The notes below the pieces were generated by a model that was not told where the DNA came from, made no database searches, and worked only from the letters and a program-made list of their open reading frames with translations. A stretch of DNA of 64,000 nt, taken from the NCBI GenBank assembly GCA_026770705.1, contig JANJGN010000301.1, forward strand, positions 248,001 through 312,000, in the 5' to 3' direction. This DNA comes from Isurus oxyrinchus. Taxonomy: Eukaryota. Shown here piece after piece: positions 271 through 62,685 of this stretch. How positions within the stretch are numbered: position 1 is the stretch's first letter; every line of letters begins with the position of its first letter. A program made the position numbers and the translations under genes.

Positions 271-1509
271 ATTGATGCCCATATCCCAAGAACGAATTAA
301 AACACTGCAAAATACTGCGGGTTCCGGAAATCTAAAGCAGGGCAAAATATAACCACTCAGCAGGTCAGTGGGCATCAATAGAGAGAAAAACAGGTCAAAC
401 GTTCAGGCTGATGACAGGTGCAAAATCTCCCTTGGTACCAATCTATAGAGCAGGACTGTTCTCCCCACCATGCTAGTCCAGTATTCATTCTTCAACTAAA
501 ATCACATATTATCTCATCATTTTTTGCAGCTCTATTCGTGGGAGCTTGCTGTGCACAAATCACCGGATGGATTTCCAATATTACAGCAGTGACTAAACTT
601 CAACAAATGTACATCAGCGAATTTCAAGGGCTTTAGGATTTCATGGGGTTGTAAGCAGCGTTCTATAAATGTAAATTCTTCCTAAATGTTAACATTTAAA
701 AATGCTGGTTGTGATATGTTGAAAACTTTGAGATTAATATGAATAGGTCGCTCCTGTGGCTGCTATTTTAAATTGTCCATTTTTAATCAGTTAAATCTTC
801 CAACAAATTGACATTGAGTGTAATCCCAGCCTGTTCAAATATTCATCATTGATTGTGACAATAGAACTTTCAGAATTGAATTATTAATTTAAATGTATTT
901 TTAATTATTTGAAATAAATAACATCTGTTCTAATGGATGTTGAAAATGTTTCTATTAATTTTATACCAACTGTCAATATTCTTAAAATAAACTCTTGTTT
1001 TGAGTTGAAACCAATCAATAAGTGTCTGTGTTTATCTGGTTTTGCTGCCATGAACACTTCATTGAAATCAGTGAGGCGTTTATGTAAATAAACACAGAAA
1101 TAGAAGTCCCAGATTAGATTCCGGAGACACAAAAGCACAGTAAATATTTCCCCATCAACATAGCACAAAAATAGAGTCAAACATGCAAATACATCAACCG
1201 ATTTCAGTAGCAATTGTTTTTTGGGCATTTTTAAAATCAGTTAAATGAGAATTATGTCACGATGATATCTCTGTTCAGAATTAAGTAAGATTCCCACTTA
1301 TCATGAAATATAATGTCATGGCAAATGTGTTTGTAGGGATGTCCTGTATCCTCTCTCTCTGTCTCTTTCTCCTCTCTGGTACTTTGTCTTGTCTCTCCAC
1401 CATGGGTCACTGTCTTTACTCCACAACATGAAGTCAATGTCTAGCCAATATATTTTCTCAGCCCGGTTCATACACTTCAAACTAAATTGATCTAATGAAA
1501 TGGATTATA

Positions 1510-2450
1510 ATCCATAGAGGGAACTTTATTCTAAATCTGTTTTGAGCGTTCACTGACTTGAGAGTGCTTGGTGGGAAACTGCAGATGAAACTACTCTGTA
1601 TCTAACCTGTGTTGCAGCCAGTAGCGTAGATTTGATGTGACCGTGCCGAAGGATCTTTCCCTGTATCTAACCCGTGCTGTTCCTGCCTTTGGAGTGTCTG
1701 ATGGAGTGTAGAGGGAGCTTTACTTTGCACCTAACCTGCACTGTGACTGCCCTGGGAGTGTTTGATACGACTGTGTAGAGGGAGATTTACTCTGTATCTA
1801 AACTGTGCTATACCTGGCCTGGGAGCAATTGATTGGGTAGTTTAGAGGGAGTGTTACTCTGCATCTAAACCATGCTATATTTGACATGGCTGTAGACACT
1901 GTAGAGGGGGATTTGCCCCTATCTAAGCCCTGGAAATATCTGATGTGATGGTGCAGAGGCAGCTTTCCTCTTTACCTGCCCCTAGTGCCGAGCTTCCTGG
2001 GAAATGTCTGATGAAGAGTGCAGAGGAAACCTTACACTGCATAGAATCCTTACCCTTACATGCCTCAACTGTGTTTGAGCGAACAATGTAGAGGAAGTTT
2101 TACCCTGTTTCTGAACTGTGCTGCACCTGCCCTGGAATGTTTGATGGTGACAGTGTCGAGGGAGATTCACTCTGAATCTAACCCATGCTATACCTGCATT
2201 GGGAGATTTTCATGTGGCAATGCAGAGGGAACTTTACATCATTAATGTAGCCCCATGCTACACCTGCCCTGGGGCTGTTTGGTGGAGCCGTGGGCCTTGT
2301 CTATGCATTACACTAGACCGTGTCCAACCGTATCTAACCCGTGCTGTACCTGCCCTGGGAGTGTTCAATGTGACAATGTAGAGGTAGCTTTAATTTCTGT
2401 GACTAGACCCATGCTGCATCTGTCCTGGGAGTGTTTGATGGGAAAGTAGA
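1510..2450. repeat. Degenerate ~60-bp tandem repeat (GTAGAGGGAGCTTTACTCTGTATCTAACCCGTGCTGTACCTGCCCTGGGAGTGTTTGATG)
   Basis: Unit visibly reiterated many times; remnants also occur near 17860-17960 and 18570-18790. Confidence 0.8.
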
Positions 2451-3480
2451 CCCTGTCTTGATATTGCATTCGACCGTGACCCTGTCTCTGTTTATATTGC
2501 AGTCGACCCTGCCTCTGTTTGTATTACACTAGGCCCTGTTCCTGTTCATGTTGCACCCAACATGTCTCTGTTTATATTGCACTAGACAGTGTCTCTGTTT
2601 ACATTGAACTAGGCCCTGCCCCTGTTTATATGACACTCAACATGTCTCTTTATATTATATTCGACCTGCCTCTGTTTATATTGCATGAGACGCTGTCTCT
2701 GTTTATATTGCACTAGGCCCTGCCCCGGTTTATATTACACTAGACCCTGTTTCTGTTTATGTTACACTAGACCCTGTCTCTATTTATTTTACACTGGACG
2801 CCGTTTCTGTTTATATTACTCTAGATCCTGTCCTTGCTTCTATTAAACAAGCCCTGTCTCTGTTTATATTATAATTGACCTGTCTCTGTATATATTAATC
2901 TAGAACTGTCTCTGTATTTCAGTAGCCACTGTCTCAGTTCTGTGCTAGATCATATCTGTATTTAAATTACATTAGACCCTGCCTCTGTTATTACTGCACT
3001 GCACACGTGCAATAATATGGAAATTGGCTGGGGTGGAAATAGTGAAGATAAGGCAGCAAGATGGTGGGAACAATTAACATGGGTGCCTATTTAGATGTTA
3101 TAACTTGTCCTACCTGCATCCCAGATTTGTGTTCATGATCTGCAGACCTCTCTTTTTTGCAGCTGTTTAAATTAAACAATTTAACTCCTATTTTCAGGGT
3201 CTAGTGCAATAAAGTAAGGGAATATACTAATGTAATATAAACTGAGGACAATTACATAAATAACTGAGACAGGACCTAATGTTACAGAAACAGAAACATG
3301 GACTAGAACAGTAACAAAGAGGCAGGCCCATTAAAATATGAACAGAGACATGGTGGAGAGCAGCAATAACTGAGACAGAGTCCAGTGTTACAGAAACAGA
3401 ATCATGGACTAGAGAAGTAACAATGAGACAGGCTGAGTGTAATATTAACAGAAACACGGTGGAATGCAGCAATATTGACA
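2450..3480. repeat. ~30-bp minisatellite (CTAGACCCTGTCTCTGTTTATATTGCA), in both orientations
   Basis: 2450-3000 is the reverse complement of the units at 1-270 and 3195-3480. Confidence 0.75.
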
Positions 3481-4024
3481 CCATATTGAAGTCCCACAGA
3501 ACCAGATAAGATCTGGGTGGAGATACCTCCTGGTGATTACCACCTATTGCCCTCCCTCAGCTGACGAATCTGTACTCCTTCATCTTTAGCACTGCGTGGA
3601 AGAAACACTGAGGGTAGCAAGGGCAAAGAATATGCTGTGAATTTGCAAAATCATTTACCATTTGACAAGACCAAGAATGCCGGAGCTGGATGAGTCCTGA
3701 ACGACGTATCTGCCAGGATGGACCTGCCACAGATGGTTAGAGAGCCAACACGAGGGAAACCCTTACCTGATCTCCGTCCCACCACACTATTGATATAAAT
3801 GTGATTGACCCCTGCTCTGTCCTTGTGGAAACCCAGGCCGGTATTCACACTGAGCACATTCTCCATTGTGTTGTGTGGCACTGCTGCTGTGCTAAACGGG
3901 ATACATTCAGAACAGATCTAGCAGCTCAAAACTTAGCATCAACGAGATACTGTTGGTCATTAACAGCAGGACAGTTGCATTCAATCACACCCTGTAATCT
4001 CATGGACCAGAATATCCCTCACTC

Positions 4025-13041: not shown

Positions 13042-13347
13042 GTGTCCAGTCGGAGGTTGTGTTGACTCAGCCAGAGGCAGAGACCGGGCGTCCCGGAGGC
13101 TCCCTGAGACTGACCTGTAAAACCAGCGGCTTCGATCTTGGCAGCTACAGCATGTACTGGGTCCGACAGGTTCCCGGACAAGGGTTGGAGTGGCTGCTTT
13201 GGTACTATAGTTCATCCAGCAACAACTATGCCCCAGCAATTAAAAATCGATTTACTGCGTCCAAAGACACTTCAAGAAACATCTTCTCCTTGGACATGAC
13301 GAGCCTGAAGACTGAAGACACCGCCATCTATTACTGTGCAACAAAGT
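13042..13347 (+). CDS. IGHV: Immunoglobulin heavy-chain V exon, germline and intact
   Basis: Acceptor TTTCTACAG|; [50 protein letters not shown] with both Cys and the Trp present, no stops. Confidence 0.97.
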
Positions 13348-13755: not shown

Positions 13756-13835
13756 AGTTTTTGTGCGGGTGTATTTCACTGTGATACTACAGGGGATCAC
13801 AGTGCTGTGCACAGCGACATCCTCATACAAAAACC
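13756..13835 (+). other. DH1 segment ATACTACAGGGGAT (13784-13797) with 5' 12-RSS and 3' 22-RSS
   Basis: AGTTTTTGT-12-CACTGTG [D] CACAGTG-22-ACAAAAACC. Confidence 0.95.
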
Positions 13836-14145: not shown

Positions 14146-14214
14146 AGTATTTCACATGATGTGTCTCGCTGTGATATACTGGGTGGCACAGCAGTTACTA
14201 AGAATACAAAAACC
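14146..14214 (+). other. DH2 segment ATATACTGGGTGG (14174-14186) with 12/12 RSS
   Basis: AGTATTTCA (weak nonamer)-12-CGCTGTG [D] CACAGCA-12-ACAAAAACC. Confidence 0.9.
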
Positions 14215-14582: not shown

Positions 14583-14630
14583 ACGCTATGGGCTACTGGG
14601 GGAAAGGGACCATGATGACAGTGACTGCCG
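14583..14630 (+). CDS. IGHJ: JH segment (AMGYWGKGTMMTVTA)
   Basis: WGxG motif and phase-1 donor G|GTAAG at 14631. Confidence 0.96.
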
Positions 14631-17600
14631 GTAAGAACCACACATTTATTTAGTAACTTTTATTTGATCTTTGCTTTACATTTTTGTCTATTTTAACAAT
14701 TCATTCAGCCAATGAGACCTGGGTTTGGTGGATTCTGTATGCAGAATTTTTACAATGTTTCATGTGATTCTGTGAAATTGAGTTATATAATTCCGCTGTG
14801 TCTTGATAACAAGTGCTGCTGATGGATTGAGACTTTGGTCGTTGTGATTTGGTGTTTACCTGCTGAGGATACTGTGTGGCCGGGCTACTTGAAATATCTA
14901 ACGTTTGTGAAAACAGTTTGACGTTTCTGCATTGTTTAATCTCGGTGACATCTAATGGCTGCGGGTTTTACCATCTGTTGCACAAGGGTTTAAATAGATT
15001 TGAAATCAAACCCAATTTTAGCAAATATGCTTAAGTTTTAATATTAATTTATTGAATATGTTCCGCCTACTCAGAATGCTGTTGACATTATTTCATATTT
15101 CTGTTTAGTTTAATTATTCATTCATTTGGTGACGAGCGGTTGTCTGGATTCGATATTGAGATTTTCTTGCAATGTTACAATGAATTCTGTTGGAAGTGTT
15201 TGTAGAATTGAGCTGCTTCTCCATGAAACGGGTTTCAGCCCCTCAGTGATGTGATTTTGGTGTATTTTCTGCTGAGGAGATTGTGTGTCTGGGTGACTTT
15301 GAACAAGTAGAATTTATGAAACGGTTTGGCGGTTCTGCATTGTTTCTGCTTTGTTTAAACTTGGTGACATTGAGCGGTTACACGTTTTGCGATTGAATTG
15401 AAGCAGCCTACGCGTTTGTATCTGCTTGAAGCGCGATTGTATGCAGAAAACAAACAGGTTTCAGAAATGGAAAAAAAGCGTTTAAAATGTGTTAGGACAT
15501 TTTGTCTTTATTTTAAGTGATAATTGCAGATTAAACTAAACCATGGATTATGACGCTCATTCAGAACATAATTCGTTACTGCATCAGAAACTATATAATT
15601 ACCAAGTTTTCAAATTGTAGAGTAAAATTAATACAATTCAAACAATTATAATGTGGTAATATTTCTCCATATTGACGGAACAGCTTTCATATTAACCTAA
15701 TTGATCATTAATCGCCTTTCACAACTCTGCTGTGCTCTGCGCGCAACTAACATGATCGGGAAAGTTTTTAGGCTGGAAACATTTTGTGATTATGGTTGAA
15801 AACATTTCAGTAAGAATATATTGACTACAAAATTGTTCGTTTCAAAAGAGATTTTGAATTACTTTTTTATATCCCTGATAACATTTGCATTGACTTAAAG
15901 AAGAGTTTGACATTGCTGTTTGGCAATATGTCTATCCGGTTATTACATTCTTTCTGTGCAGCCATAACCATATTATTCCTTCAATGTCATTGGGATTTGG
16001 ATAGCGAGATAATTGTCACTAATCTAATTTTAAACAGTTTAGGGGGGGGGGGGGGGGGGGGGTTGTAATTCGCTGGCAGTAAAGGAATTGTTCTTACATT
16101 TTTTGAACTGTAGGAAGGTGCAGACTGCATTTGAATAGAGATTGACAAGTAAAAGCTTGAAATTCGGACAGGTTAATTTAATTGCAAACATTAGTATTAG
16201 TTTTGAACTTAATAACAACATCCTGCCTCCTATTGCTGTGCTGTGCACAGAATAGAATTATAGGAGAAGAACAGATTATATCTGAGATTCATGCTTAATT
16301 CTTATTAAATATTAACTTGAAGGACAAAATCTGGAATCAATTTGCCAGTTATATTTCAGTGGTGCAGATGATCTGAATGAATTGTTCTCATCAAGTTTTA
16401 TACTGATCAATTTGGATCTTCGTTCAGTGAATAATATAATTAACAATTAAATTATAGGGATTGTTATCTAGGAAGCACTTTTATTGATAATAAGTAACTG
16501 CCAGGAAGATTTGTTTACATGTAGCTTGGAGTTAAGACAAGATTAATTCAGTAAACAGATGATATTACACCTCATCGACAGTTAATGCGATGTGACCCCG
16601 GTCAGATTTGAAAGTGTTTCAAATATTCAGCTTATAAATTCGTCATGTGAATTGCTTGATGAGAATAGATGGAACTTATGATTTCTCAATCTGTTCAGAA
16701 ATGCATAGTTTAAAATTTTGTCCGTTAAAACAGAGCAGGAGAAGTAAAAATACAATAATAAATATTGATCAGATTTAAGTAAAATTGATATACTTGCCTG
16801 AATGTTACCATCTAGTAATTTGAAGTTTATTGTTTAACATTGTTTCAGTGTAAGGTTGATTTAAATAAACCTCAATTATTTCACAAAGTACCAAGGAGAA
16901 ACAAATTTTCAATCATTGAAAATTATTTTTATTATAAAGTAGAAATCAGCTAACAAGAAAATGAATTGACAATAACAAGATAATTAACTTACAATATAAT
17001 ATTAGTGATAATTAATTCAACATAAATGAACTCCAACAATTAAATAGTGTACTGGACATTATAGTGAATGCAAAATCTCAAAGGGTGGAGAGAATTTTTA
17101 ATTGTATCCAAAATGAATTCAGAAAAGAATACTTTTCTTACTCAGCTGTGCTCAGCTCGATAATGTGTTTCGCCTTGATGTTTTTATTGGTTATATTTAT
17201 ACCTAAAATCAAAAGATATCAGTGTGTAATCGGTTTTCAATGTGAATGTTTCCTGATTTGTTTAATTCTTACCCTGTCATTGAGTCTTTATTACGGACAA
17301 CTAATTATCTTGAATCTGTAGTATTTGCTGTGCTCAATTTCAGGGTAAATTAAATCGTACATTGTTTGGAGATTTGAGTCAGACGGAGAATTAAATGGAC
17401 TTCAAAGGGAGTTTTGAAATGAAAATCAGTTTAATTTGAAAGAAGTTATAGAATAATTGTAACAAGTTGACTGTTGATCAATTGGAATCAAACAGCTTGA
17501 ATGAAATGGACAGATTGAACAGATCTATCTGCTGGGAACTCGATTGTTGCACCGTTTGTGTCTGTTCTGTTTCTGTGTGCATGGTCACTGTGCTGGGACC

Positions 17601-19294: not shown

Positions 19295-20034
19295 ACCTCA
19301 ACACACTCAGTCTCTTTACCACACACCCTCATTCGCTCACTCTCTCTGTCACACACGCTCTCTCTCACACAGTGCACATACATTCTCTCATGCACTCTCT
19401 CTGACAGACACACACTCTTTCTCTCTCTGTCACACACACACTCACATTCACTCTCTCCCACACAAACTCCCTTTAACACGTGCACACTATCTCCTACACA
19501 CATACATGCACTCTTTCTTTCTCACACCTGCACTCTCACACATGCATTCTCTCTCTCTCTCTCACACAAACACATGCACACACTCTCTCTCTTTTACACA
19601 CACCCACTCTATATCTCACATACATGCACCCTCTCTGCCACACGCACATAAATACTTTCAATTCTCCCCCTCTGTCACACACAGACACATAACACTGTCT
19701 CTCACACACACACACACACATCCTCATTCTCTCTCTCTGACGCACACAGAAACACATTCACATTCCCTCACACACACACACACACACACTGTTCCTCTCA
19801 CACACGCACTCGCTCTCATTCTTTCACTCTCTCACGCACACACACTCTCTCTCTGACACACACACTGGTTTTCTCTTTCACACACTCTTTCTCTCTCTCA
19901 CACAAACTCTCTCTCACGTACTTATACTACATATACTACATATCACTCACACCCCCACACACACTCTCACACATACACAAACACATTCACTTTCTCTCTC
20001 ACACACACGTGCTCTCTCTCAAACACTCTCACGC
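19295..20034. repeat. (CA)n/(CT)n compound microsatellite
   Basis: Low-complexity CA/CT runs ending at the N gap. Confidence 0.9.
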
Positions 20035-20211
20035 NNNNNNNNNNNNNNNNNNNNNNNNNNNNNNNNNNNNNNNNNNNNNNNNNNNNNNNNNNNNNNNNNN
20101 NNNNNNNNNNNNNNNNNNNNNNNNNNNNNNNNNNNNNNNNNNNNNNNNNNNNNNNNNNNNNNNNNNNNNNNNNNNNNNNNNNNNNNNNNNNNNNNNNNNN
20201 NNNNNNNNNNN
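20035..20211. other. Assembly gap (177 N)
   Basis: Run of N. Confidence 1.
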
Positions 20212-20613
20212 GGCTGAAAATGTTAATTTCAGAAAGAAGATCCTTTAAGCTGCAGGCATGTTCATTGTTCCATTTCTGATGCCTTTTTGGGTAAAATGAA
20301 ATTACACAGGTGACATCACTATATATGTGGAGAATTTCCAAGTGTTGAACCAAACACAAAGAAACAAGAAAAGTGGAGGGATGTGACTGAGACCACGGCC
20401 GCCTGGATCCCCAATACTGGTGCACACTTGGTGCAAGATGCCTGCACGGCCCTTCCTGGTTTTGCTGTACCCTTCCCCTCCAGCCCCCTCAGTCTGCCTA
20501 TTCGCGCACTGACACGGGTTTCTTAAAGAAAGGCATCGGCATTAAAGCAGCTGGCCAGTGATCTACACTGCTGCCTGACTTTACACAGCTGGTGTTACTG
20601 AAAGCTGGTCAAT

Positions 20614-20781
20614 ACGGAGAATCAGGACAGGATCGATGTAGAGGAAGAGGAGGAGGTGGAGGTGGTGGAGCCGAATGGAGGAGCCCCCAGCTCAGCTGTG
20701 GACAACAGGCAACGGAAAGCTGAGCCAGAGCAGAAAATCATCTGGAGAAACATCGCCTTGATGAGCCTACAGCACCTGGGC
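20614..20781 (+). pseudogene. SCD5: Stearoyl-CoA desaturase (SCD5-like) N-terminal fragment
   Basis: QKIIWRNIALMSLQHLG closely resembles the SCD5 motif QNIVWRNVVLMSLLHLG. The putative start is ACG in frame, and the match ends abruptly in TCAC repeats. Confidence 0.7.
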
Positions 20782-21435
20782 ACCCTCACTACCCACAATC
20801 ACTCACCTCACCTCACTCACTCACTCACCCTCACACACTCACTCACACTCACTCAATCACCCTCACTCACCCACCCTCACTCACTCACTCTCACTCACAC
20901 TCATCACTCACTCCCCTCACTCACACTCACTCAATCACCCTCACTCACCCACACTCATTCACTCACCGTCACTCAATCTCACTCCTTCACCCACCCTCAC
21001 TCACCCTCACCCACTCACCCAGCTTCACACACCCTCATTCACTCACCATCAATTACTTTTACCTTCACTCACTCACCCTCACTCACTCATCCTCACTCAC
21101 CCTCCCGTCCTCACTCACCTACCTTCACTGACACTCAATATCTCATCCACCCGCCCTCACACACCCACTCACCCTCACTCACATACCCACCCTCACATAC
21201 CCACCAACCCTCACTCAGCCACTCAGCTACTCTCATTCAATCACCCACCCTCACTCACTCACTCATCCACTCTCACTCACCGACATTCAGACACCGACCC
21301 ACGCCCACTCAGCACCACCCTCACTCACACCTTCACTCACCCACGCACCCTCACTCACTCAGACACCCACCCTTGCTCTGTCACTCAGCCACCCTCACTT
21401 TGTCAATCATGCACGCGCTCACTCACTCAATCACT
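20782..21435. repeat. (TCAC)n-like C-rich microsatellite
   Basis: Reiterated TCAC/CTCACC. Confidence 0.9.
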
Positions 21436-21449
21436 TTTCATAAATCGGT

Positions 21450-23120
21450 GTCTGGGAGGGTGGGAACTGCGGGGAAGAGAGACCTGGACGTGAGGCCTGA
21501 GGCCTTGTAGTGCCAGAAAGTGGAGCATGGCTGAAGGGAGTGACGAGCTTCGTTGGAAAGCACAGAGAGCCTGGGGGAAAGGGCAGGGAGGTGGGGGAAA
21601 TGGCAGAGAGCCGGGGAGGGTTGTGGGTGAAGGGTAGAGAGTCGGGGAAAAGGGCAGGGATCCAGCAGAAAATGCATTGGGATGGGGCAAAGGTCAGTGA
21701 GCAGGGGGAAAGGTCAGCGAGCCAGTGAAAGGGCAGAGAGGTGGGGGGGTGAGGAAGGGCAGAGAGGCAGAGGGATGACCGGGCAGAGAAGCGGGGGATG
21801 GTACAGGCAGAGATGCGAGGGGAAATGGCAGAGTGGTGGCAGGTGGAACGGGCAGGAAAGTGGGTGGTGGAAAGGGCAGAGAGGCGGGGGAAAGGGTAGA
21901 GAGATGGGAGGGGGAAAAGGCAGAGAAGAGGGAGGGGGAAAGGGCAGAGAGGCGGGTGAGGGACAGGGCAGAGAGGCGGGAGAGGGACAGGGTAGAGAGG
22001 AGGGAGGGCAGAAAGGCGGTAGGGGGAAAGGACCAAAAGGTGAGTGGGGAAAAGGGCAGAGAGGCGGGGGGGAAGGGCAGAGAGGTGGGGGGTAAGGGCA
22101 GAGAGGCAGGTGGGGGAAAGGGCAGACAGGCAGCAGGGGGAAAGGGCATAGAGGACGCAGGGCAGAGAGGCAGAGGGGGGAAGGACAGAGAGGAGGGTGG
22201 ACAGAGAGTCGGAGGGGGAAAGGGCATAGAGGCGGGGGGTAAGAGCGGAGCGGCAGAGGGGGAAGGGCAGAGAGGTGACGGAAAGGGCAGAGAGTCGATG
22301 GAAAGGGCAGTGAGCTGGGGAAAGGGCAGAGAGGCGGGGGATAAGGGCAGAGAGGCAGGGGGTAAGGGCAGAGATGCAGTAGGGGGAAAGGGCAGAGAGG
22401 CAGGAGGGGGAAAGGGCACAGAGGCGGGAGGGGGAAAGGCCAGAGAGGGAAAGAGCAGAGAGGCAGAGGATGGAAAGGGCAGCGAGCCATGGGAATGGGC
22501 AAAGAACCAGTGGAAAAGGTCAGAGAGCTGGGCAAAAGTGCAGAGAGTAGTGGAGTGTGCACAGAGAGCTGGGGGAGAAAGGGCAGAGAGATGATGGAGA
22601 AAGGGCAGAGAGGCAGGAGGGGGAAGGGCAGAGATGAGGGAGGGGGAATGGGCAGAGAGGCGGGAGGGGAAAAGGGCAGAAAGGTGGGGGTGAAGGGCAG
22701 AGCAGTGGGTGGGGAAGGGCAGAGCGGCAGGGTGGAGAAGCAGGGGGTGGGGCGTGCAGAGAGGCAGGAGGTGGAAAGGGCAGAGAGATGGGTGGCGGAA
22801 AGGGCAGGGAGGAGGGAGAGCGGAGAGGCAGAGGGTGGAGCGGACAGAGAGGTGGAAGGCGGGAAAGGGCTGAGGGAGAAAGGTCAGTGAGCCAGGGGAC
22901 AGGTCAGTGAGCCAATGGAATGGGTCAGAAAGCTGGGCAAAAGCGAATAGAGCCGTGGAGTAAGTGCAGAGAGCTGAGGACAAAGGGCAGAGAGCTTGGG
23001 GAGAAAGGGCAGAGAGGCGGGGGAGAAAGGGCAGAGAGGTGGAGGGGAAAGAGCAGAGAGGCAGAGGGTGGGGGAAGGGCTGAGAGCCAGTCTATAGTGG
23101 GGAGAACTGGGCAAAAGCAG
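21450..23120 (+). repeat. G-rich tandem repeat (GGGGGAAAGGGCAGAGAGG units)
   Basis: Dozens of ~20-bp purine-rich units with strong G skew on the + strand. Confidence 0.92.
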
Positions 23121-23229
23121 TTGCGAGTGGACGCACCAGATAACCTGGGCTCCACTCTCTCTAACTCTCTCTCTATCTCTCCCTCATTGTCTCTCCCCCT
23201 CCTGAAATCCTTTCCATTCCCGGGGAAAG

Positions 23230-24620
23230 GCTCTCATCTGCAGGCCAGTTAGTTTAACATCTGTCCGAGCGAAAATGCTGGAATCGATTATTCAGGAATC
23301 TATCACGGGTCACTTAGAAAATTCAAATGCAATTATGCAAACCCATCATGATTTTGTGAAAGGGAAATCATGTTTGGCTGACGAGGAAGCAACAAGGAAC
23401 ATGAATAAAGGAGAACCTGTGGGTGTGCTGCCCTTGGGCTACCAGAAGGCATTCGACAAAGTGGCACATCAAAGGTTACTGCACAAAATAATGGTGTCAG
23501 CAGTAACATTTCAGCATGGGTAGAAGTTTGGTTAGCTAACAGGAAACAGAGAGCAGGGAGAAATTGGTTATTTTAGGTTGGCAAGATGTGACAAATGGAG
23601 TTCCACAGGGATCATTGCCGCAGCCTCAACTATTTACAGTTTATCTCAATGACTTGAATGAAAGGACTGAATGAATTTGCCAAATTTGCTGATGACACAA
23701 AGACAGATAGGAAAGTAAATGGTGAAGAGGGGATAAAGGGTCAGCAAAGGGATATCAAAAGGTTAAGTGAGTGGGCAAAAAATGACAGATGGAGTATAAT
23801 GTGGGAAAATATAAACTTGTCCACTTTGGCAGGAAGAATATAAAAGCAGCATATTATTGAAAGGGAGAGAGATTGCAGAATCCTGAGGTACAGAGGAATG
23901 TGGATCCCTTGGTGTATGAATCACAAAAAGTTATAATACAGGAATAGCTAGTGATGAGGAAGGCAAAGGAAGTGTTGGCATTTATTATAAGGGGAATAGA
24001 ATATAAATGGAAGGATATTTTGTTACAGTTTAACAGGGTGTCGATGAGACCTCTTCTGAATTACTGTGTACAGATTTGGTCTCATTTAAGAAAGGGTGTA
24101 AAAGCATTAGAAGTTGTTCAGAGAATGTTAATTCAAATGATACTGGGAGGTGTCGTCGGTTATCTTATGTGGAAATTTGGATAGGCTGGGCCTGTATCCA
24201 TTGGAGTTTAGAAGAATAAGAGCTGATTTTATTGAAACATGTAAGATCCTGAGGGAAATTGACAGGGTGGATGCTGAAAGGATGTTTCCCCTTGTGAGAG
24301 AGACTAACGATAGGGAACACGGTTTAAAAATAAGAGGTCTCTCATTTCAGACGGAAATGAAGGGATTTTATTTTTATCTCAAAGGGTCGTGAAACTTTGG
24401 AACTCTCTTCCCCAGAGATCGATGGAGGAGGAGTCATTAAAATTTCAAGGCAGAGGTAGAGAGATTCTTCATTAACAAGGGAGTCAAAGGTTAGCGGAGA
24501 TTAGGCGGGAACGTGGAGTTAACGTCACAATCATATCAGCTATGACAGGAGTGAATGGTGGAGGAGGCCCCAGAGGCCAAATGGCCTACTCCTGCTACTG
24601 ATCCGCATGTTCACATGCAC
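23230..24620 (+). mobile_element. CR1-clade LINE (RT to 3' UTR), degenerate
   Basis: HDFVKGKSCL, YQKAFDKVAH, KFADDTK and LGLYPLEFRR motifs across frameshifts. Confidence 0.9.
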
Positions 24621-25173: not shown

Positions 25174-25473
25174 CAACACCGTCTTCGCCCACTCTCTACA
25201 GCCTGGTCTCCTCCTGTCAGCAACACAACACCGATGGCTCCGTCACCTACGGCTGTTTGGCGATGGATTACTCCCCAGAAATCACCAGCCTGACCTGGAA
25301 GAAAGATGGGCAGCAGATTCCCACTGGATATAAGACTTACCCGTCAGTGAGAAACCAGAAGGGAACCTACACCCTGAGCAGCCAGTTAACCATCACCGAG
25401 TCAGAGGGGGAATGCAGCAAAATCAAGTGTGAGGTTCGACACAGCGGCTCAGACAAGAGCATTGAAATGCAAT
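25174..25473 (+). CDS. IGHM: IgM constant exon CH1
   Basis: TTTCCCAG| [40 protein letters not shown].. |GTAAG; 300 nt, phase 1/1. Confidence 0.96.
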
Positions 25474-25685
25474 GTAAGTGTTGGGGAACCTGTGAGAAAC
25501 AGAGGCTGGGAATGACCTGTATAGGGCCTTGGTTATAACACATTTATAGTGCTTTGCATAGATTTGCTCCCTGCAAATTCTCGGTTAGTGTCTATTAACG
25601 GAAAAGAACCTATAAAAATGTAGGAATTAATTGTATCTGTTATCAATTTATTCTGCAAGAAATGTTTAACCTGTATTTTTTGAAG

Positions 25686-26000
25686 GTCCTCCTGACATCT
25701 TCTCTCCAACTGTTCTCCTCACCGTGAGTTCCCGGGAAGAAATCACAACCAACAAATTTGCAATCGCCGTCTGTTCAATCATCGATTTCCGACCAAATCC
25801 AATCACCGTGAAGTGGCTGAAGAATGGACAACCCATGGATTCAGGAATTGTCACCTCTCCCGCCTTTGAAGTGAATGGGAACTTCTCGGCCACCAGTCGG
25901 CTGAAAGTCTCCGCTGGGGAATGGTTCACCGACGCGGTATATACCTGTCAGGTCACTCACCAAGGGGTCACCCAAAGTCGAAACGCCACCAAGTGTGAGG
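25686..26000 (+). CDS. IGHM: IgM constant exon CH2
   Basis: C1-set domain [20 protein letters not shown]; AG/GTAAG flanks; 315 nt. Confidence 0.96.
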
Positions 26001-26624
26001 GTAAGAAATACAAACCGAGGAAGCAATAGATCATTCTGCTCTCCGATGTTAATCAAATGAGGAATTTATTGGTGTTAGTAGAAAGCATGGAACAACTTCC
26101 AATTTACTATCATGTAGTCAGTATTTAATTCCGATGTAATGGCTGCATTCGGTTTGTTCACCATTCAGGATTTTATCACATCACGTCTCTGCATTGACGT
26201 CACAGAGTGAGTGAGGTGGACTTGACATCAGCTTTACCCTGAGTCAGCTGATCATGTTTGGAGAGGCAGAAGATGTCTGGAACCCTTCACTGGTAACAGC
26301 TTCGAGATAGAGTGTTGGAAAGTGCATCCACCCTATTTATAAAACAGCTTTCAGTCCTGCATTCCAGGGCCCAGGAATGATACATTTGTATTGGGACTGG
26401 GGCAACGCAGATTCATCAGAATGTTACCGGGGCTGAATGACTTAAATTATGAGAATGATTTACACAGACCAAGCTGGTTTTCCATTGTGTAAAGAAGATT
26501 TAAGACGATAGTTAGAGGTTGATATGTCCGAGGTGATTTATTCTCCTTTAGAGAATGAAGACTGAACACTGCTGTCCTCATTCTGAAGGTGAAACTTTGG
26601 TTGATATTAATTTCTGTCTCACAG

Positions 26625-26936
26625 GTGATCACCACTGCCACAACGATCCCACAATTACTCTATTGCCACCGCCAATTGAACAGGTCTTACTGGAGGCGAC
26701 CGTGACCTTAACCTGCATCGTTTCTAATGCTCCTTATGGAGTCCTCGTGTCCTGGACACAAGAGAAGAAGCCTTTGAAATCAGAGATCGCCGTCCAACCG
26801 GGAGAAGATCCCGACAGCGTGGTCAGCAACGTAAACATCTCGACACAAGCCTGGCTGAGTGGGGCTGAGTTCTACTGCGTGGTGAGCCATCAGGATCTGC
26901 CGACTCCTTTAAGGAGTTCCATCCACAAGGAACAAG
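26625..26936 (+). CDS. IGHM: IgM constant exon CH3
   Basis: [35 protein letters not shown]; CAG|/|GTGAG; 312 nt. Confidence 0.96.
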
Positions 26937-27650
26937 GTGAGCGGTGAGATTGAAGCAATAAGTGGTTCAATGAATCTATTTCCAGTGTAAGTGTAAGGAT
27001 CAATATTTACTATTCAGTGTACTCATGGTCTACTCTGATGAGCAATTTCGCCAACTAAACGCCCTGGGCATGTGGACTTTCAAGGGGAAATTGATAAGTA
27101 GATGAATGAACGATGAATTGAAGGTTGTGCCATTGGGTTTAGATGAAGCAAGATGGGAGGATCCTGGTGCGAAGCTGTAACACCAACATAGACCAGCTGG
27201 GCAGAATGGCCTGTTTCTGTGCTGTAAACTTTGAGAAACTTTCTCGTCCAACCCCATAAGTTCTCCATGAAAAGGATTGTGCCACCTCTGCTCCGAGCTG
27301 GAAAGCCGGACAGATCCCAAAGTATTTTATTTATTAATTCATGGGATGTGGGCGTCGCTGGCTGGGCCAGAGTTATTGCCCATCCCTAATAGCCCTTGAC
27401 AAGGTGGTGGTGAGCTGCCTTCTTGAACCGCTGCAGTCCATGTGGTGTAGATACACCCACAGTGCTGTTAGGAAGGGAGTCCCAGGATTTTGACTCAGTT
27501 ATAGTGAAGGATCGGTGATATATTTCCAAGAAGTGGATAATGAAAAACCTTAATATTCATCACAAAACACGTTTCTCTCACATCTAACCAGCAGTTTCAT
27601 TATCTACGAAAGTATCCAGTTTGTTGACATTTATTGTACATTTTCTGCAG

Positions 27651-28042
27651 TTAAAGACCCGCGGGAACCGTCCGTGTCTGTCCTCCTGCCCTCGGCAGAA
27701 GATGTCTCCGCTCAGAGATTTGTCTCCCTCAGCTGCTTAGTGAGAGGTTTCTCCCCGCGAGAGATTTTCGTCAAGTGGACCGTCAATGACAAGCCGGTGG
27801 ATCCCGGAAACTACAAGAACACTGAGGTAGTGGCGGAGAACGGCAATCGCTCCTTCTTCATGTACAGCCTGTTATCCATTGCAGCAGAGGAGTGGGCCAG
27901 CGGAGCTTCTTACTCCTGTGTGGTGGGACATGAAGCGATCCCCTTGAAGATCATCAACAGAACTGTTGATAAATCCAGCGGTAAACCGAGTTTTGTGAAC
28001 ATTTCCCTTGCACTGATGGACACCGTTAATTCATGTCAATGA
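27651..28042 (+). CDS. IGHM: IgM constant exon CH4 plus secretory tailpiece
   Basis: [25 protein letters not shown]; tail [20 protein letters not shown] with an NIS glycosylation site and penultimate Cys; internal donor G|GTAAAC after 27980 for the membrane form. Confidence 0.97.
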
Positions 28043-31078: not shown

Positions 31079-31206
31079 ATTCCACAGACCGTATCTGGAT
31101 TGAAGACTCTGAGGATGATAACAGCAACATCTGGACAACCGCTTCCACATTCATCATCCTGTTCTTCCTGAGCATTTTCTACAGCACTGCCGTCACTCTG
31201 GCGAAG
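31079..31206 (+). CDS. IGHM: IgM transmembrane exon TM1
   Basis: CCCCGTAG| DSTDRIWIEDSEDDNSNIWTTASTFIILFFLSIFYSTAVTLAK |GTGAG; acidic spacer and conserved antigen-receptor TM motif; in frame with the CH4 internal donor. Confidence 0.95.
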
Positions 31207-31345
31207 GTGAGAAGATTCAATCCACTCACACTTCAAACTGACAGAAGCGGTTTGAAAAAATCTCTCAATGTTTCATTGATTAAAACTCTAACATAAATGT
31301 CCTAGATCAAAACAACCTGCTTCATTATTTCATCTTCTTTTACAG

Positions 31346-45074: not shown

Positions 45075-46184
45075 GACATAAGACAGGGAAAATTTACATT
45101 CATGAAACTCAAATCAAACATCACGTCAAGATCTGACGGTCACTTGATTCATCAGGACCTGAATATCATCAGCCTTTGAATGCAGCACAAGAAATTTTTG
45201 CCTCTAGGAAATGATTTCAAACATCAGTGTGGCTGGAAAAGCAACGAGACACACACACACCCAAGTGAGAGTGATCCAGTGAACTGACTGGAAAGAGCTT
45301 TAACCAGTTACAGAGCCTGAAAAATATCACATCATTCTCAGCGGAGAGAAAAGTTCCCCTTTTTCTGTGTGTGGACGAGGCTTCAACTGATCATCCAACT
45401 TGGAGAAGCACAAGGACACCCACACCACGTAGAAAGCATGGAAATGTGGGGACTGTGGGAAGGGATTCAATTATCCATCCAAGCTGGAAACTGATCACTG
45501 CAGTCACACCGGGGAGAGACCGTTCATCTGTTCTGATTGCGGGAAAGGATTCACTCAGTTATCTACCTTGTTAACACACCAGCGAGTTCACACTGGGGAG
45601 AGACCATTCACCTGCTCCATGTGTGGGAAGGACTTTACTAAATCATCTACCCTGACTAAACACAAGCGAGTTCACACTGGGGAGAGACCATTCAGTTGCT
45701 CTTACTGTGGGAAGAGATTTGGACTGTCATCCAATCTCACTGAACATCTCCGTGTTCACACTGGGGAGAGACCGTTCACCTGCCCCGTGTGTGGGAAGGG
45801 ATTCACTTGTTTAACCAACCTCACATCACACCAACTTGTTCACACTGTTCAGAGACCTTTTCAATGTTCTGACTGTGATTCTGGCTTTAAAAGCACAAGG
45901 GATCTGCTGATACACCAACGCAGTCACACTGGGGAGAGGCCGTTCATCTGCTCCGAGTGTGGTAAGGCATTCACTCACGCATCCAACCTGCTGGCACACC
46001 AGGCAGTCCACACCGGGGAGAGGCCATTCACCTACTACAGGTGTGGGAAGAGATTTCGTCGCTCATCCAATGTTCAGAGTCACCACCGAGTTCACATGGG
46101 GAGGATCCGTTCAGCTGTTCTGTTTGTGGGAAGGGATTCACTCACTCATCCACCCTGCTGAGACACCGGCGAGTCCACAAGTGA
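45075..46184 (+). pseudogene. Krueppel-type C2H2 zinc-finger gene, frameshifted
   Basis: ORF 45568-46161 has tandem HTGERPF.C..C fingers; upstream fingers and the last finger are in other frames; acceptor TTTTCCAG at 45074. Confidence 0.85.
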
Positions 46185-52706: not shown

Positions 52707-53378
52707 ATGGAAGGAAAAAGCACCGTTCACGTTGGAGAGAAACCATAAACTTGTTCTGTCCTGTCGAGACACAAGCACAGTCAAACTGTGGAGAAACTGT
52801 GGAAATGTGGTGATTGTGGGAAGGGATTCAATTATCCAGTTAGGCTGGAAATTCATCAGCGCATTCACACCGGAGAGAGGCCGTTTACCTGCCCCAAGTG
52901 TGGGAAGGGATTCACTACCTCATCCCATCTGCTGGCACATCAGCTCATTCACACTGGGGAGAGACCATTCATCTGCTCTGAGTGTGGGAAGGGATTCACT
53001 CAGTCATCCAACTTGCTGAGACACCAGCGAGTTCACACTGATGAAAGACCTTTTCAATGCCAAGACTGTGGGAAGTGCTATAAAAGTTCTGGGGAACTGA
53101 TGTCCCATCAGCGAGTTCACACTGACGAGAGACCGTTCAGATACTGTCACTGTGGGATTGGGTTCAAGCAATCATCTGACCTCACTGTACACCAGCGCAC
53201 TCACACTGGGGAGAAACCATTCTCATGCTCCGTGTGTGGGAAGAGATTCAGTCAGACATGCACCCTTCTGCGACACCAGCAAGTTCACACTGGGGAGAGG
53301 CCATTCACCTGTTCCATGTGTGGGAAAAGATTTGGTCGGTCATCCACACTGCTGAGACACCAGCAAGTTTACAAGTGA
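52707..53378 (+). pseudogene. C2H2 zinc-finger gene, 7 fingers, with an early in-frame stop
   Basis: ATG 52707 MEGKSTVHVGEKP, TAA at 52746, then the same frame continues through seven TGE(R/K)PF-linked fingers (fifth lacks its first Cys) to TGA 53378. Confidence 0.85.
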
Positions 53379-59450: not shown

Positions 59451-59591
59451 AAAAATCCCAATACTGCTTTTCGGTGGATTTGAGCAAGGATAAGTGCGAT
59501 AAATAAACCTGTCTCTTGTGCTTCTGTGCAACCCGGGATCAAACCGTTCCAGCTGGCCAAGGCACAAACGAAAGCTCTAAATGCTCGTTGA

Positions 59592-59630
59592 GGTTTTTGT
59601 ACGGGGTTCTAGCTGTGATCTAACGCTGTG
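59592..59630 (-). other. 23-RSS of TCR V #1
   Basis: CACAGCG-23-ACAAAAACC on the minus strand. Confidence 0.95.
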
Positions 59631-59923
59631 CTTAACTGCACAGTAATACACCGCCTCGTCCTCCACACTCAATTCGCTTATGTTGAGGTAACCGTTCTTT
59701 TGAGACTTGTCAGCAACCGCCAGATATCCTCCTGAAACTACCTCTTTCTTCAGTGCTATGATATTGGTAATAATCCATCTTGGTGGCTGTGCCGTCTGCT
59801 GCCGATACCATTGCATGTACTCCATATTCCGATCTGTATATTCGCAGCCTAACTGCACTGAACCACCTTCTAACACCGTCATTGAAACCGGGGCCTGAGT
59901 TATTGGATCTGCGCATAGTCCGC
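59631..59923 (-). CDS. T-cell receptor alpha/delta-type V exon #1, intact
   Basis: DPITQAPVSMTVLEGGSVQLGCEY..MQWYRQ..GYLNISELSVEDEAVYYCAVK; phase-1 acceptor; perfect nonamer. Assignment to alpha/delta is inferred from motifs and the 23-RSS. Confidence 0.88.
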
Positions 59924-60124
59924 CTGTGTGTGGAGAAATGAAATATCAATCGGTTAAACAGTGTTGATCTAAATTTGTTTGTAGCTCCGTGAGTTTGTGG
60001 AACCTCCTATCTACCCAGCTGTCCATCATATGGATATTTATGATCGTTAATTGTATTACTTACTAGCGCAATCTTTGTACAATAATCTTCTATTCTGCCT
60101 TGATTAACTAATTCCAGTACTTAC

Positions 60125-60158
60125 TGTCCAACAGCACCGCCAGTATTATCAGAAACAT
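60125..60158 (-). CDS. Leader exon of TCR V #1 (MFLIILAVLLD)
   Basis: ATG at 60158, donor A|GTAAG, splices in frame to the V exon. Confidence 0.88.
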
Positions 60159-60247
60159 GTCTGAATGAATCCCTCCCGATGAATGTGAATGGAATGAGCC
60201 AGAGATTGAGAACGAGAGACGGAACCCGGGGGCTGTTCAGCTCATTC

Positions 60248-60338
60248 TGACCTCACTCAGGAAACCATCCCTATTGGCTTTGGCGTTTCCACCACCTGAC
60301 TTAGTGACGCTCTGCTTGAGCTTGTCGCCCTCCGCTGG
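60248..60338 (-). promoter_or_regulatory. TCR V #1 promoter: CRE-like decamer, CCAAT and CTCF-like motif
   Basis: Minus strand AGTGAGGTCA (60248-60257), CCAAT (60273-60277) and CCAGCGGAGGGCGA (60325-60338). Confidence 0.55.
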
Positions 60339-61927: not shown

Positions 61928-61966
61928 GGTTTTTGTACAGTGACTGCCGCGTTTCCCTTCAGTGTG
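61928..61966 (-). other. 23-RSS of TCR V #2
   Basis: CACACTG-23-ACAAAAACC on the minus strand. Confidence 0.93.
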
Positions 61967-62256
61967 AGGCTTTATCGCACAGTAATACACAGCGGTATCG
62001 GCGTTCTCCGTCTTCTCAATAACCAATTGGCCCCGTTTGTCCGCAGTGGAAAGTTCCAATTCGAATCGGTCTTTTCTCTCTTTGCCAGATGAGAAGCTGC
62101 TTATAATAAACTCCAGTCCCTGACCAGATTTCTGTTTGTACCAGTACATTCCGTAAGTATTGGACATGTCATAGCTGCAGTTTAACTGCAGTGAATCCCC
62201 GCTCTGTACGTTTCCCGCAGTGGGAAATTGGGACACTTGTTCCGAGCGACATCGAC
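61967..62256 (-). CDS. T-cell receptor alpha/delta-type V exon #2, intact
   Basis: EQVSQFPTAGNVQSGDSLQLNCSY..MYWYKQKSGQGLEFI..RFELEL..GQLVIEKTENADTAVYYCAIK; acceptor TTTTTACAG. Confidence 0.88.
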
Positions 62257-62347
62257 CTGTAAAAACATTCAGACTTTGAGTCATTGGAGAAACGTCTGCA
62301 TAAATAGACACTCTCTACAGGTTACAGAATAAATCCCCTATACTTAC

Positions 62348-62384
62348 AAGTTAGCAGCACTAGAATGACAGAGAGTAGATTCAT
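62348..62384 (-). CDS. Leader exon of TCR V #2 (MNLLSVILVLLT)
   Basis: ATG at 62384, donor T|GTAAG, in frame with the V exon. Confidence 0.88.
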
Positions 62385-62517
62385 TTGTGTCGCGTAGTGT
62401 ATCCTTACAATGAAAGTGTCAGTAAAAAAAGGAATCCCAGCTCACATCAGCAGAGGACGGAGCGTCTGAACGAAGTCAATACTCGGTTAATGTGACAGGC
62501 AGGGATAATGTTCCAGT

Positions 62518-62685
62518 CACGTGGTTTTTCTGCTCTTAGATTGGTTGGAAATAGACTTGTTCTCGTGACGTAAGGATGTCGTTTTTGACCCCCTGCTCCT
62601 TTCTCCATCGGTTCCCATCGGAACATGCCAAATGTCGAATCACCAGGAATTTCCTTTACTCCCTGTGGCGGGAAGTGAGCGGAAC
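62518..62685 (-). promoter_or_regulatory. TCR V #2 promoter motifs
   Basis: CACGTG at 62518, CCAAT (ATTGG) at 62540, CRE-like TGACGTAA at 62566 and ETS-like GGAA sites near 62670-62685. Confidence 0.45.

What the first reader, a model, noticed from the sequence alone, without database searches (positions are those of the whole stretch)
21450..23120. Switch-region-like G-rich repeat in the JH-Cmu intron
Seen: 1.6 kb of AAGGGCAGAGAGG/GGGGG units, G-rich on the non-template strand, about 2 kb upstream of CH1. The core unit contains GGCA (an RGYW AID hotspot), and a few GAGCTGGG motifs occur (e.g. 22312, 22526, 22567). Established: mammalian S regions occupy this position with this strand bias and form R-loops and G-quadruplexes, while sharks are described as switching between clusters without canonical S regions. 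Inference: this may be a proto- or convergent switch target.
Basis: partly seen in the sequence, partly recalled or inferred. Interest (0 to 1): 0.7.

Follow-up and report, generated by a model that had tools for sequence, protein, structure and literature searches.

The report
Transposon minisatellite in shark IgM intron
The G-rich repeat upstream of this shark antibody (IgM) constant region is an expanded piece of an old DNA transposon that landed once in the intron and was copied with one family of antibody genes; it looks like a class-switch region but lacks the usual break motifs, so it is likely a passenger.

Summary
The 1.6-kb G-rich array is real, 2 kb upstream of CH1 in a shark IgM cluster. 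It is the expanded internal minisatellite of a non-autonomous DNA transposon (13-bp terminal inverted repeats, 8-bp target duplications, hAT-type). Its subfamily carries a captured SCD5 exon-1 piece. Dispersed non-Ig copies show the same parts in the same order, with shorter G-tracts.

One insertion was copied with one IgM family: 33 of 37 clusters on contig C26 carry it, always on the sense strand. It is absent from 20 of 20 sampled clusters of the second IgM family and 5 of 5 IgW introns.

Switch-region tests: G density and G4 potential are high, but AGCT is at background (4.2/kb against 3.7). WGCW and sense-strand WRC are depleted, and the GGCA hotspot's target C lies on the template strand. 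A non-Ig copy has far more AGCT (18 in 1.0 kb).

Against a pure-passenger reading, the G-tract is about ten times longer in IgM copies. No junction data could be tested.

The scan noted a paralogous array before (e1-9544836) as an ordinary minisatellite; its short listing does not mention a transposon origin.

The parts
21546..23110 (+). G-rich minisatellite (about 20-24-bp units, AAAGGGCAGAGAGG plus a G-run); the expanded internal VNTR of the transposon. Ancestral-type GAGAGC(C/T) units are denser at the ends, derived CAGAGAGG units in the middle.
21441..21545 (+). Element 'head' (GAAGAGAGACCTGGA...GAGGCCTGAG) between the TCAC tract and the G-tract, shared with non-Ig copies
   Evidence: blastn 74-86% to L065, L067, L075, L079; also read in the TIR-bounded L088
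20787..21434 (+). TCAC/CACCCT tandem tract of the element (C-rich on the sense strand)
20421..20786 (+). Captured piece of the SCD5 (stearoyl-CoA desaturase 5) 5' UTR and most of exon 1; start codon lost, ends before the splice donor
   Evidence: 83-87% DNA identity to the parent exon at G000:C1:37.78 Mb (L064); profile hit to shark SCD5, E 1.6e-21
19300..23235 (+). Remnant of the non-autonomous TIR (hAT-type) element: CA/CT tract, unique segment, SCD5 piece, TCAC, head, G-tract, CT tail. The 5' TIR region was found in no IgM copy examined; the 3' TIR was removed here by a deletion of about 510 bp. Left boundary approximate.
23140..23235 (+). CT tail and CCTCCTGAAATCC motif of the element; homology to TIR-bearing paralogs breaks at 23235/23240
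23238..24620 (+). Degraded CR1-like LINE fragment (name recalled from its reverse-transcriptase-like translation) after the element
13042..13347 (+). VH exon with 23-spacer RSS, open frame
13784..13797 (+). D1 between 12- and 22-spacer RSSs
14174..14186 (+). D2 (read by eye between degenerate RSSs)
14583..14631 (+). JH (AMGYWGKGTMMTVTA), 6.9 kb upstream of the array
25176..28042 (+). C-mu exons CH1-CH4 with secretory tail, open frames
31080..31207 (+). Membrane exon TM1

Best explanation
The array is the expanded internal G-rich minisatellite of a dead, non-autonomous DNA transposon with terminal inverted repeats (likely hAT) that inserted once into the J-C intron of an ancestral IgM cluster, was copied with that cluster family, and is likely a passenger rather than a switch region. 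Shown: (1) the element family exists genome-wide with TIRs and 8-bp target duplications; (2) one subfamily captured the SCD5 5' UTR and exon 1; (3) the IgM copy has the same parts in the same order, and many paralogs keep the 3' TIR; (4) the two clusters that branch outside all carriers lack it. Inferred: after insertion the 5' end was lost, the G-tract grew from a few hundred bases to 0.5-3.6 kb by slippage or unequal exchange of a derived unit, and it still turns over among paralogs. When the cluster is transcribed the tract would form R-loops or G4 by composition alone, but with few AID hotspots it would yield few staggered breaks.
For: Dispersed SCD-piece matches on many large contigs outside the Ig clusters. 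Of 18 such loci fetched, one is the parent gene and one an IgM-intron relic; the others share element parts with the window. The head motif is matched in 4 and the CT tail follows the G-tract in 3. L079 is complete, about 3.7 kb from TIR to TIR, flanked by AACTAGTG/AACTAATG. L088, a 1.8-kb TIR-bounded copy without SCD5, still has TCAC, head and G-rich units. The TIR 13-mer has 1723 exact hits against 16 for the reversed control. Flanking 8-mers of 10 two-ended copies agree at 56 of 80 letters against 38.7 permuted, p 1e-4. A 3'-end match is seen in 26 of the 33 C26 carriers, and the same flank follows the TIR in the 14 printed. In the tree, array-less L042 and L121 group with the outgroup family (95/100) and L040 is a nested deletion. 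The array is absent from 20 of 20 group-B IgM and 5 of 5 IgW stretches. AGCT 4.2/kb against 3.7; WGCW z -3.8; sense WRC 28.7/kb against 52.7. AGCT density falls as arrays lengthen (rho -0.40, n 31, related copies), and non-Ig L074 has 18 AGCT in 1.0 kb. Three array-less clusters keep open V and CH1 frames; clusters with stops keep arrays (L035 2.7 kb, L125 1.1 kb).
Against: The G-tract is much longer in IgM copies (median 1781, range 850-3544, n 31) than in non-Ig copies (median 181, range 0-1001, n 11), while the TCAC tract differs less (704 against 313). This could be one founder expansion or selection. The array is kept in 33 of 37 clusters, including ones that lost neighbouring element parts (L028, L031, L039). 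Its orientation and G density (51.6%) match what supports R-loops in mouse S regions (PMC4245955). No autonomous transposase partner was found (30 of 34 hAT-domain loci, 1.5-kb flanks), so 'hAT' rests on TIR and TSD form. No B-cell mutation or junction data were available.
Confidence: 0.85

Rival explanations
1. The transposon-derived tract has been co-opted as a G4/R-loop focus that recruits AID and channels inter-cluster switching among group-A IgM clusters, a convergent proto-switch region.
For: Same place and strand in 33 of 37 clusters. About tenfold longer than in non-Ig copies. G 51.6%, and 55% of 25-nt windows reach G4Hunter 1.2 against 2.3% for the window. The sense RNA is nearly unstructured (centroid -6.4 kcal/mol over 401 nt). 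Contigs of two differently labelled organisms bridge the TIR-flank junction.
Against: AGCT is at background, WGCW and sense-strand WRC are depleted, and 80 of 177 sense Cs lie in GGC. Expansion dilutes AGCT. It is absent from group-B IgM, IgW and IgNAR-like introns, although shark switching is reported in both directions between IgM and IgW without S regions (PMC4279169, PMC4588147, passages). It lies 6.9 kb from JH, whereas the nurse-shark junctions are, as I recall, in the intron flanking JH (Zhu et al. 2012; not held, not read). It comes from a single insertion, so conservation is not independent.
Confidence: 0.08
2. The array has no immune role in B cells but acts in the germline as a recombination- or deletion-prone tract that helps reshape the IgM cluster family.
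For: Lengths range from 0.5 to 3.6 kb. It diverges faster than its flanks (L025: 79% by local alignment against 96-99% for nearby unique flanks; 93% of aligned letters plus 214 gap positions). Several deletions end in or beside the element's tandem tracts (L028, L031, L034, L039, the window's own).
Against: The second IgM family expanded to about 50 listed CH1 copies without it. Length turnover is expected of any VNTR. Cluster duplication breakpoints were not mapped.
Confidence: 0.05
3. The array is an ordinary satellite that arose in place or is dispersed on its own, unrelated to the SCD5-bearing element.
For: The exact core A(A/G)GGGCAGAG is absent from the G-tracts of the non-Ig copies. An unrelated GA-rich array with a similar word lies on C5.
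Against: The array lies between the element's head and CT tail exactly where non-Ig copies have G-rich units of the same build, and its ends keep those ancestral units.
Confidence: 0.02

Closest known systems
Mammalian IgH switch regions (S-mu, S-gamma, S-alpha)
   Same: [quoted passage not shown]
   Different: AGCT is not enriched and WGCW is depleted; present in only one IgH family; transposon-derived; no I-promoter or junction evidence; the locus is a one-C cluster, not a translocon.
Xenopus S-mu
   Same: Tandem repeat in the J-C intron of a non-mammalian vertebrate.
   Different: [quoted passage not shown]
Multicopy Pack-TIRs of animals, e.g. Pack-hAT-N8_XT of Xenopus tropicalis (Tan et al. 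2021, PMC8277862)
   Same: Non-autonomous TIR element carrying a 5' gene piece from an unlinked parent, spread to several chromosomes; hAT is the commonest carrier in that survey.
   Different: Older (83-87% identity to the parent, below that survey's 90% cut-off), more copies, carries three tandem-repeat tracts, and one copy was amplified passively with Ig clusters. The word 'shark' does not occur in that paper's main text; its supplements were not read.
Non-autonomous hAT (Charlie-type) elements; name recalled, no TE library was available
   Same: Short TIR starting CAGG, 8-bp TSD resembling nTCTAGAn.
   Different: No matching transposase-coding partner was found.

Membership tests
Ig switch (S) region | Long repetitive tract upstream of the first C exon | tested here: met
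   1.6 kb, 2.06 kb before CH1
Ig switch (S) region | G-rich non-template strand with G clusters (R-loop/G4 capable) | tested here: met
   G 51.6%; 16 G4 motifs with loops up to 12 (13.1 in shuffles, so compositional); G4Hunter mean 1.16. Prediction only.
Ig switch (S) region | AGCT/WGCW overlapping AID hotspots enriched over neighbouring DNA | tested here: not met
   AGCT 4.2/kb against 3.7; WGCW 13.8/kb against 18.2, z -3.8; paralogs 0.5-7.4 AGCT/kb
Ig switch (S) region | Present before the C genes that take part in switching (donor and acceptor isotypes) | tested here: not met
   0 of 20 group-B IgM (20 of 50 listed were fetched), 0 of 5 IgW, absent from the IgNAR-like intron read whole
Ig switch (S) region | Own germline (I) promoter and sterile transcript | not testable with these tools
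   No RNA holder listed
Ig switch (S) region | AID-dependent junctions and mutations map to it | not testable with these tools
   No B-cell data available
Non-autonomous hAT DNA transposon | Short terminal inverted repeats | tested here: met
   CAGGCTTGTCCAA at both ends of family members; 1723 against 16 control hits. The window's own copy has lost both TIRs; paralogs keep the 3' one.
Non-autonomous hAT DNA transposon | 8-bp target-site duplication | tested here: met
   56 of 80 letters agree over 10 two-ended copies against 38.7 permuted; 2 of the 10 match poorly. Not testable for the IgM copy, whose 5' end is lost.
Non-autonomous hAT DNA transposon | Ends shared with a hAT-transposase-coding element | tested here: inconclusive
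   No match of the element ends in 30 of 34 PF05699 loci, 1.5-kb flanks only
Pack-TIR | Host gene fragment between TIR ends, with an identifiable parent not flanked by the element | tested here: met
   SCD5 5' UTR and exon 1 inside L079; parent L064 has an intact exon and GT donor and no match to the element ends
Pack-TIR | Several insertions with distinct TSDs (multicopy) | tested here: inconclusive
   SCD-bearing copies lie on many contigs with different flanks, but only L079 showed both ends
Pack-TIR | Young copy, 90% or more identical to the parent (survey cut-off in PMC8277862) | tested here: not met
   83-87%; an operational cut-off of that survey, not a defining trait of the kind

The most novel reading that the evidence does not exclude
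A G-rich minisatellite delivered by a gene-capturing DNA transposon expanded about tenfold after landing in the sense orientation in a shark IgM intron. It now serves as an R-loop/G4 platform that focuses AID breaks and switching among some 35 linked IgM clusters: a switch region evolving de novo from a transposon, independently of tetrapods.
Probability: 0.08. Interest if true: 0.85.

Novelty: new member of a known kind. Interest (0 to 1): 0.25.

Why it matters
As a passenger it explains away a tempting 'shark switch region' and leaves the published view intact that shark Ig loci lack S regions. It also gives a dating marker for one IgM expansion and an example of a multicopy gene-capturing DNA transposon in a shark, a kind reported as rare in animals (4 cases, 1.4%, in PMC8277862). 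The family offers a natural experiment: near-identical IgM clusters with arrays of 0 to 3.6 kb, where one can ask whether G-richness without AGCT attracts AID. If junctions did map there, it would show how switch regions can arise from a transposon.

Tried and rejected
1. The array as SCD5 intron 1 carried along with the exon: rejected. The capture stops before the splice donor and the parent intron does not match; the SCD-less copy L088 has the G-tract.
2. L040 as a pre-insertion site: rejected. It lacks 6.3 kb including non-element flanks and nests among carriers.
3. The C5:140.05 Mb array as a relative: a GA-rich satellite with no match to the element.
4. G-rich stretches in two group-B introns (L053, L054) and in L100: non-tandem, unrelated to the array.
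5. C16 clusters as IgW: they have one C exon with nearby RSSs and look like light chains. IgW was found on C88 instead.
6. PF00487 search for the SCD parent returned three other loci, not examined. A single-sequence homologue search found nothing; the alignment search worked. Pfam gave no family for the 63-aa piece.
7. Autonomous partner: none found.
8. Expression: no RNA holder listed.
9. The primary shark switching papers (Zhu 2012, Zhang 2013) are not held; junction positions are recalled only.
10. Paper searches listed nothing that describes this array or element by title or abstract start; subscription journals and TE libraries were not searchable.
11. L124 is a partial relic and misplaced in the tree (long branch); it counts among the 4 array-less loci.

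Full report
OBSERVATION. The window holds one shark IgH cluster: VH 13042-13347, two D segments, JH 14583-14631, four C exons from 25176, a secretory tail and TM exons (Pfam V-set E 1.3e-18 and C1-set E 3e-15). I call it IgM from this layout and the recalled tail sequence. The interval 21450-23120 is 51.6% G on the sense strand, with 22 AAGGGCAGAG copies against 0.2 in shuffles. It ends 2.06 kb before CH1 and starts 6.9 kb after JH.

SURROUNDINGS. Upstream lie a CA/CT tract, a unique segment, a stretch that translates like a desaturase N-terminus (weak PDB hits to SCD), a TCAC tract and a 100-bp head. Downstream lie a CT tail and a CR1-like fragment. A profile of nine copies of the desaturase-like piece hit shark SCD5 (E 1.6e-21). 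The parent exon is at G000:C1:37.78 Mb, with ATG, full exon 1 and GT donor. The window's piece (20421-20786) is 83-87% identical to it and stops before the donor.

THE ELEMENT. The SCD5 piece gave 87 matches in the genome, most in IgM clusters but others on many large contigs. I fetched 18 of the non-cluster matches: one is the parent, one an IgM-intron relic, and the rest share element parts with the window. The head matches in 4 of 18 by blastn and is followed by G-rich units of the type G-run, AAA..., GAGAGC(C/T). L079 runs TIR to TIR over about 3.7 kb with flanks AACTAGTG/AACTAATG. The TIR 13-mer has 1723 exact matches against 16 for the reversed control. Nine further two-ended copies were picked from the first 100 listed hits; with L079 their flanking 8-mers agree at 56 of 80 letters against 38.7 permuted (p 1e-4). 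One of them, L088, lacks SCD5 yet has TCAC, head and G-rich units, so the G-tract is native to the element. Short TIRs with 8-bp duplications point to hAT (established knowledge; the Charlie-type label is recalled). No transposase partner was found in 30 of 34 hAT-domain loci. With a captured host exon it is a multicopy Pack-TIR in the sense of PMC8277862 (passages read), though older than that survey's cut-off.

DISTRIBUTION IN IG CLUSTERS. CH1 finds two IgM families: 61 hits at 82-100% and 50 at 65-73%; some small scaffolds may duplicate C26 loci. All 37 first-family loci on C26 were read. 33 carry the array (0.5-3.6 kb), with 275 sense and 0 antisense pattern matches, and 26 of the 33 keep a match to the element's 3' end. 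The TIR is followed by one and the same flank in the 14 printed. The five first-family loci read on other scaffolds also carry it. The window's copy lost the 3' TIR through a deletion of about 510 bp, and no IgM copy matched the unique 5' end. The array is absent from 20 of 20 second-family stretches (J seen in 15), from 5 of 5 IgW stretches on C88 (one whole intron, four about 9 kb; IgW named) and from the IgNAR-like intron read whole. In a tree of CH1 plus flank, array-less L042 and L121 fall with the outgroup family (95/100, bootstrap rough), L040 is a nested deletion and L124 a relic. One insertion followed by cluster duplication explains the pattern. Contigs from runs of two differently labelled organisms bridge the TIR-flank junction by at least 36 bases, so the insertion is not private to this assembly. 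Genome-wide the derived double unit has 509 matches; of the first 100 listed, 95 are in these clusters and 5 in an unrelated C5 satellite; the other 409 were not listed.

SWITCH-REGION TESTS. [quoted passage not shown] Tandem WGCW pentamers mark off-target AID breaks (PMC4532491, abstract). The array meets the G criterion: 51.6% G, and 55% of windows at G4Hunter 1.2 or more, by composition. It fails the hotspot criterion: AGCT 4.2/kb against 3.7 for the window, WGCW z -3.8, sense-strand WRC 28.7/kb against 52.7, and 80 of 177 sense Cs in GGC. Across 31 paralogs AGCT is 0.5-7.4/kb and falls with array length (rho -0.40; copies are related, so the p-value is not independent), while non-Ig copy L074 has 18 AGCT in 1.0 kb. 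Three array-less clusters keep open V and CH1 frames, and damaged clusters keep arrays; CH2-CH4 were not checked. Reviews state that sharks switch between clusters, including IgM and IgW in both directions, without S regions (PMC4279169; PMC4588147; passages). The primary papers are not held; that junctions lie near JH is recalled. PMC2435157 and PMC12227049, passages only, added locus context and nothing on this repeat. No supplements were read; junction maps in those of Zhu et al. 2012 could bear on the claim.

AGAINST MY READING. The G-tract is about ten times longer in IgM copies than in non-Ig copies (medians 1781 and 181), while the TCAC tract differs about twofold. It survives deletions that removed neighbouring element parts. 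Its orientation is the one that favours R-loops. All of this traces to one insertion, so it cannot separate a founder expansion from selection. I give co-option 0.08.

VERDICT. A real feature with an ordinary origin: an expanded transposon minisatellite riding in one IgM family. It resembles an S region in shape but is not a member by the hotspot and distribution tests. An earlier unreviewed note on a paralog (e1-9544836) reached the minisatellite reading; a word search of the scan's notes found no transposon or desaturase account. Interest 0.25.

Noticed in passing
L126-L129 (G000:C88), last 1-2 kb of the stretches read; directly before IgW C1 in L126: A 66-68-bp tandem repeat with AGCT in each unit (10-19 AGCT per kb, C-rich on the sense strand) in 4 of 5 IgW introns. 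A similar 67-bp family lies at window 1661-1879 on the other strand and looks like a common shark repeat, but it is far richer in AGCT than the IgM array.
   Followed up: partly
L074 (G000:C4:103.9 Mb): A non-Ig copy of the SCD5-bearing element with a 1.0-kb G-rich tract holding 18 AGCT, the most switch-like sequence seen; its 3' end differs from the other copies.
   Followed up: partly
L084-L092 (G000:C1): Members of the TIR family share ends but differ inside (0.7-5.5 kb). L090 holds a broken frame resembling a Harbinger-type protein (recalled); other captured fragments are possible.
   Followed up: no
window about 59590-60300 and 61930-62600, minus strand: Two T-cell-receptor-like V segments with 23-spacer RSSs downstream of the IgM cluster, opposite in orientation; fits the published IgH-TCR linkage (PMC12227049).
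   Followed up: partly
window 45433-46158 and 52749-53375: Two C2H2 zinc-finger arrays with 84-bp periodicity.
   Followed up: no
L137-L140 (G000:C26:34.57, 37.55, 32.31 Mb): V segments 80-81% identical to the window's VH with no J or C exon detected in the 10-20 kb read downstream; possibly orphan or TCR-associated VH.
   Followed up: partly
L071 (G000:C26:23.04 Mb): Relic of a group-A IgM intron with a truncated element copy (91% to the window) at the edge of the cluster region.
   Followed up: no
window 14680-14951 and 15091-15345: An old internal duplication (about 68% identity) just downstream of JH, seen in cross-alignments with paralogs; lies in the region where hypermutation would extend.
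   Followed up: no
L093 (G000:C5:140.05 Mb): A GA-rich satellite spanning the 10 kb read, with GGGCAGAG words, unrelated to the element.
   Followed up: partly
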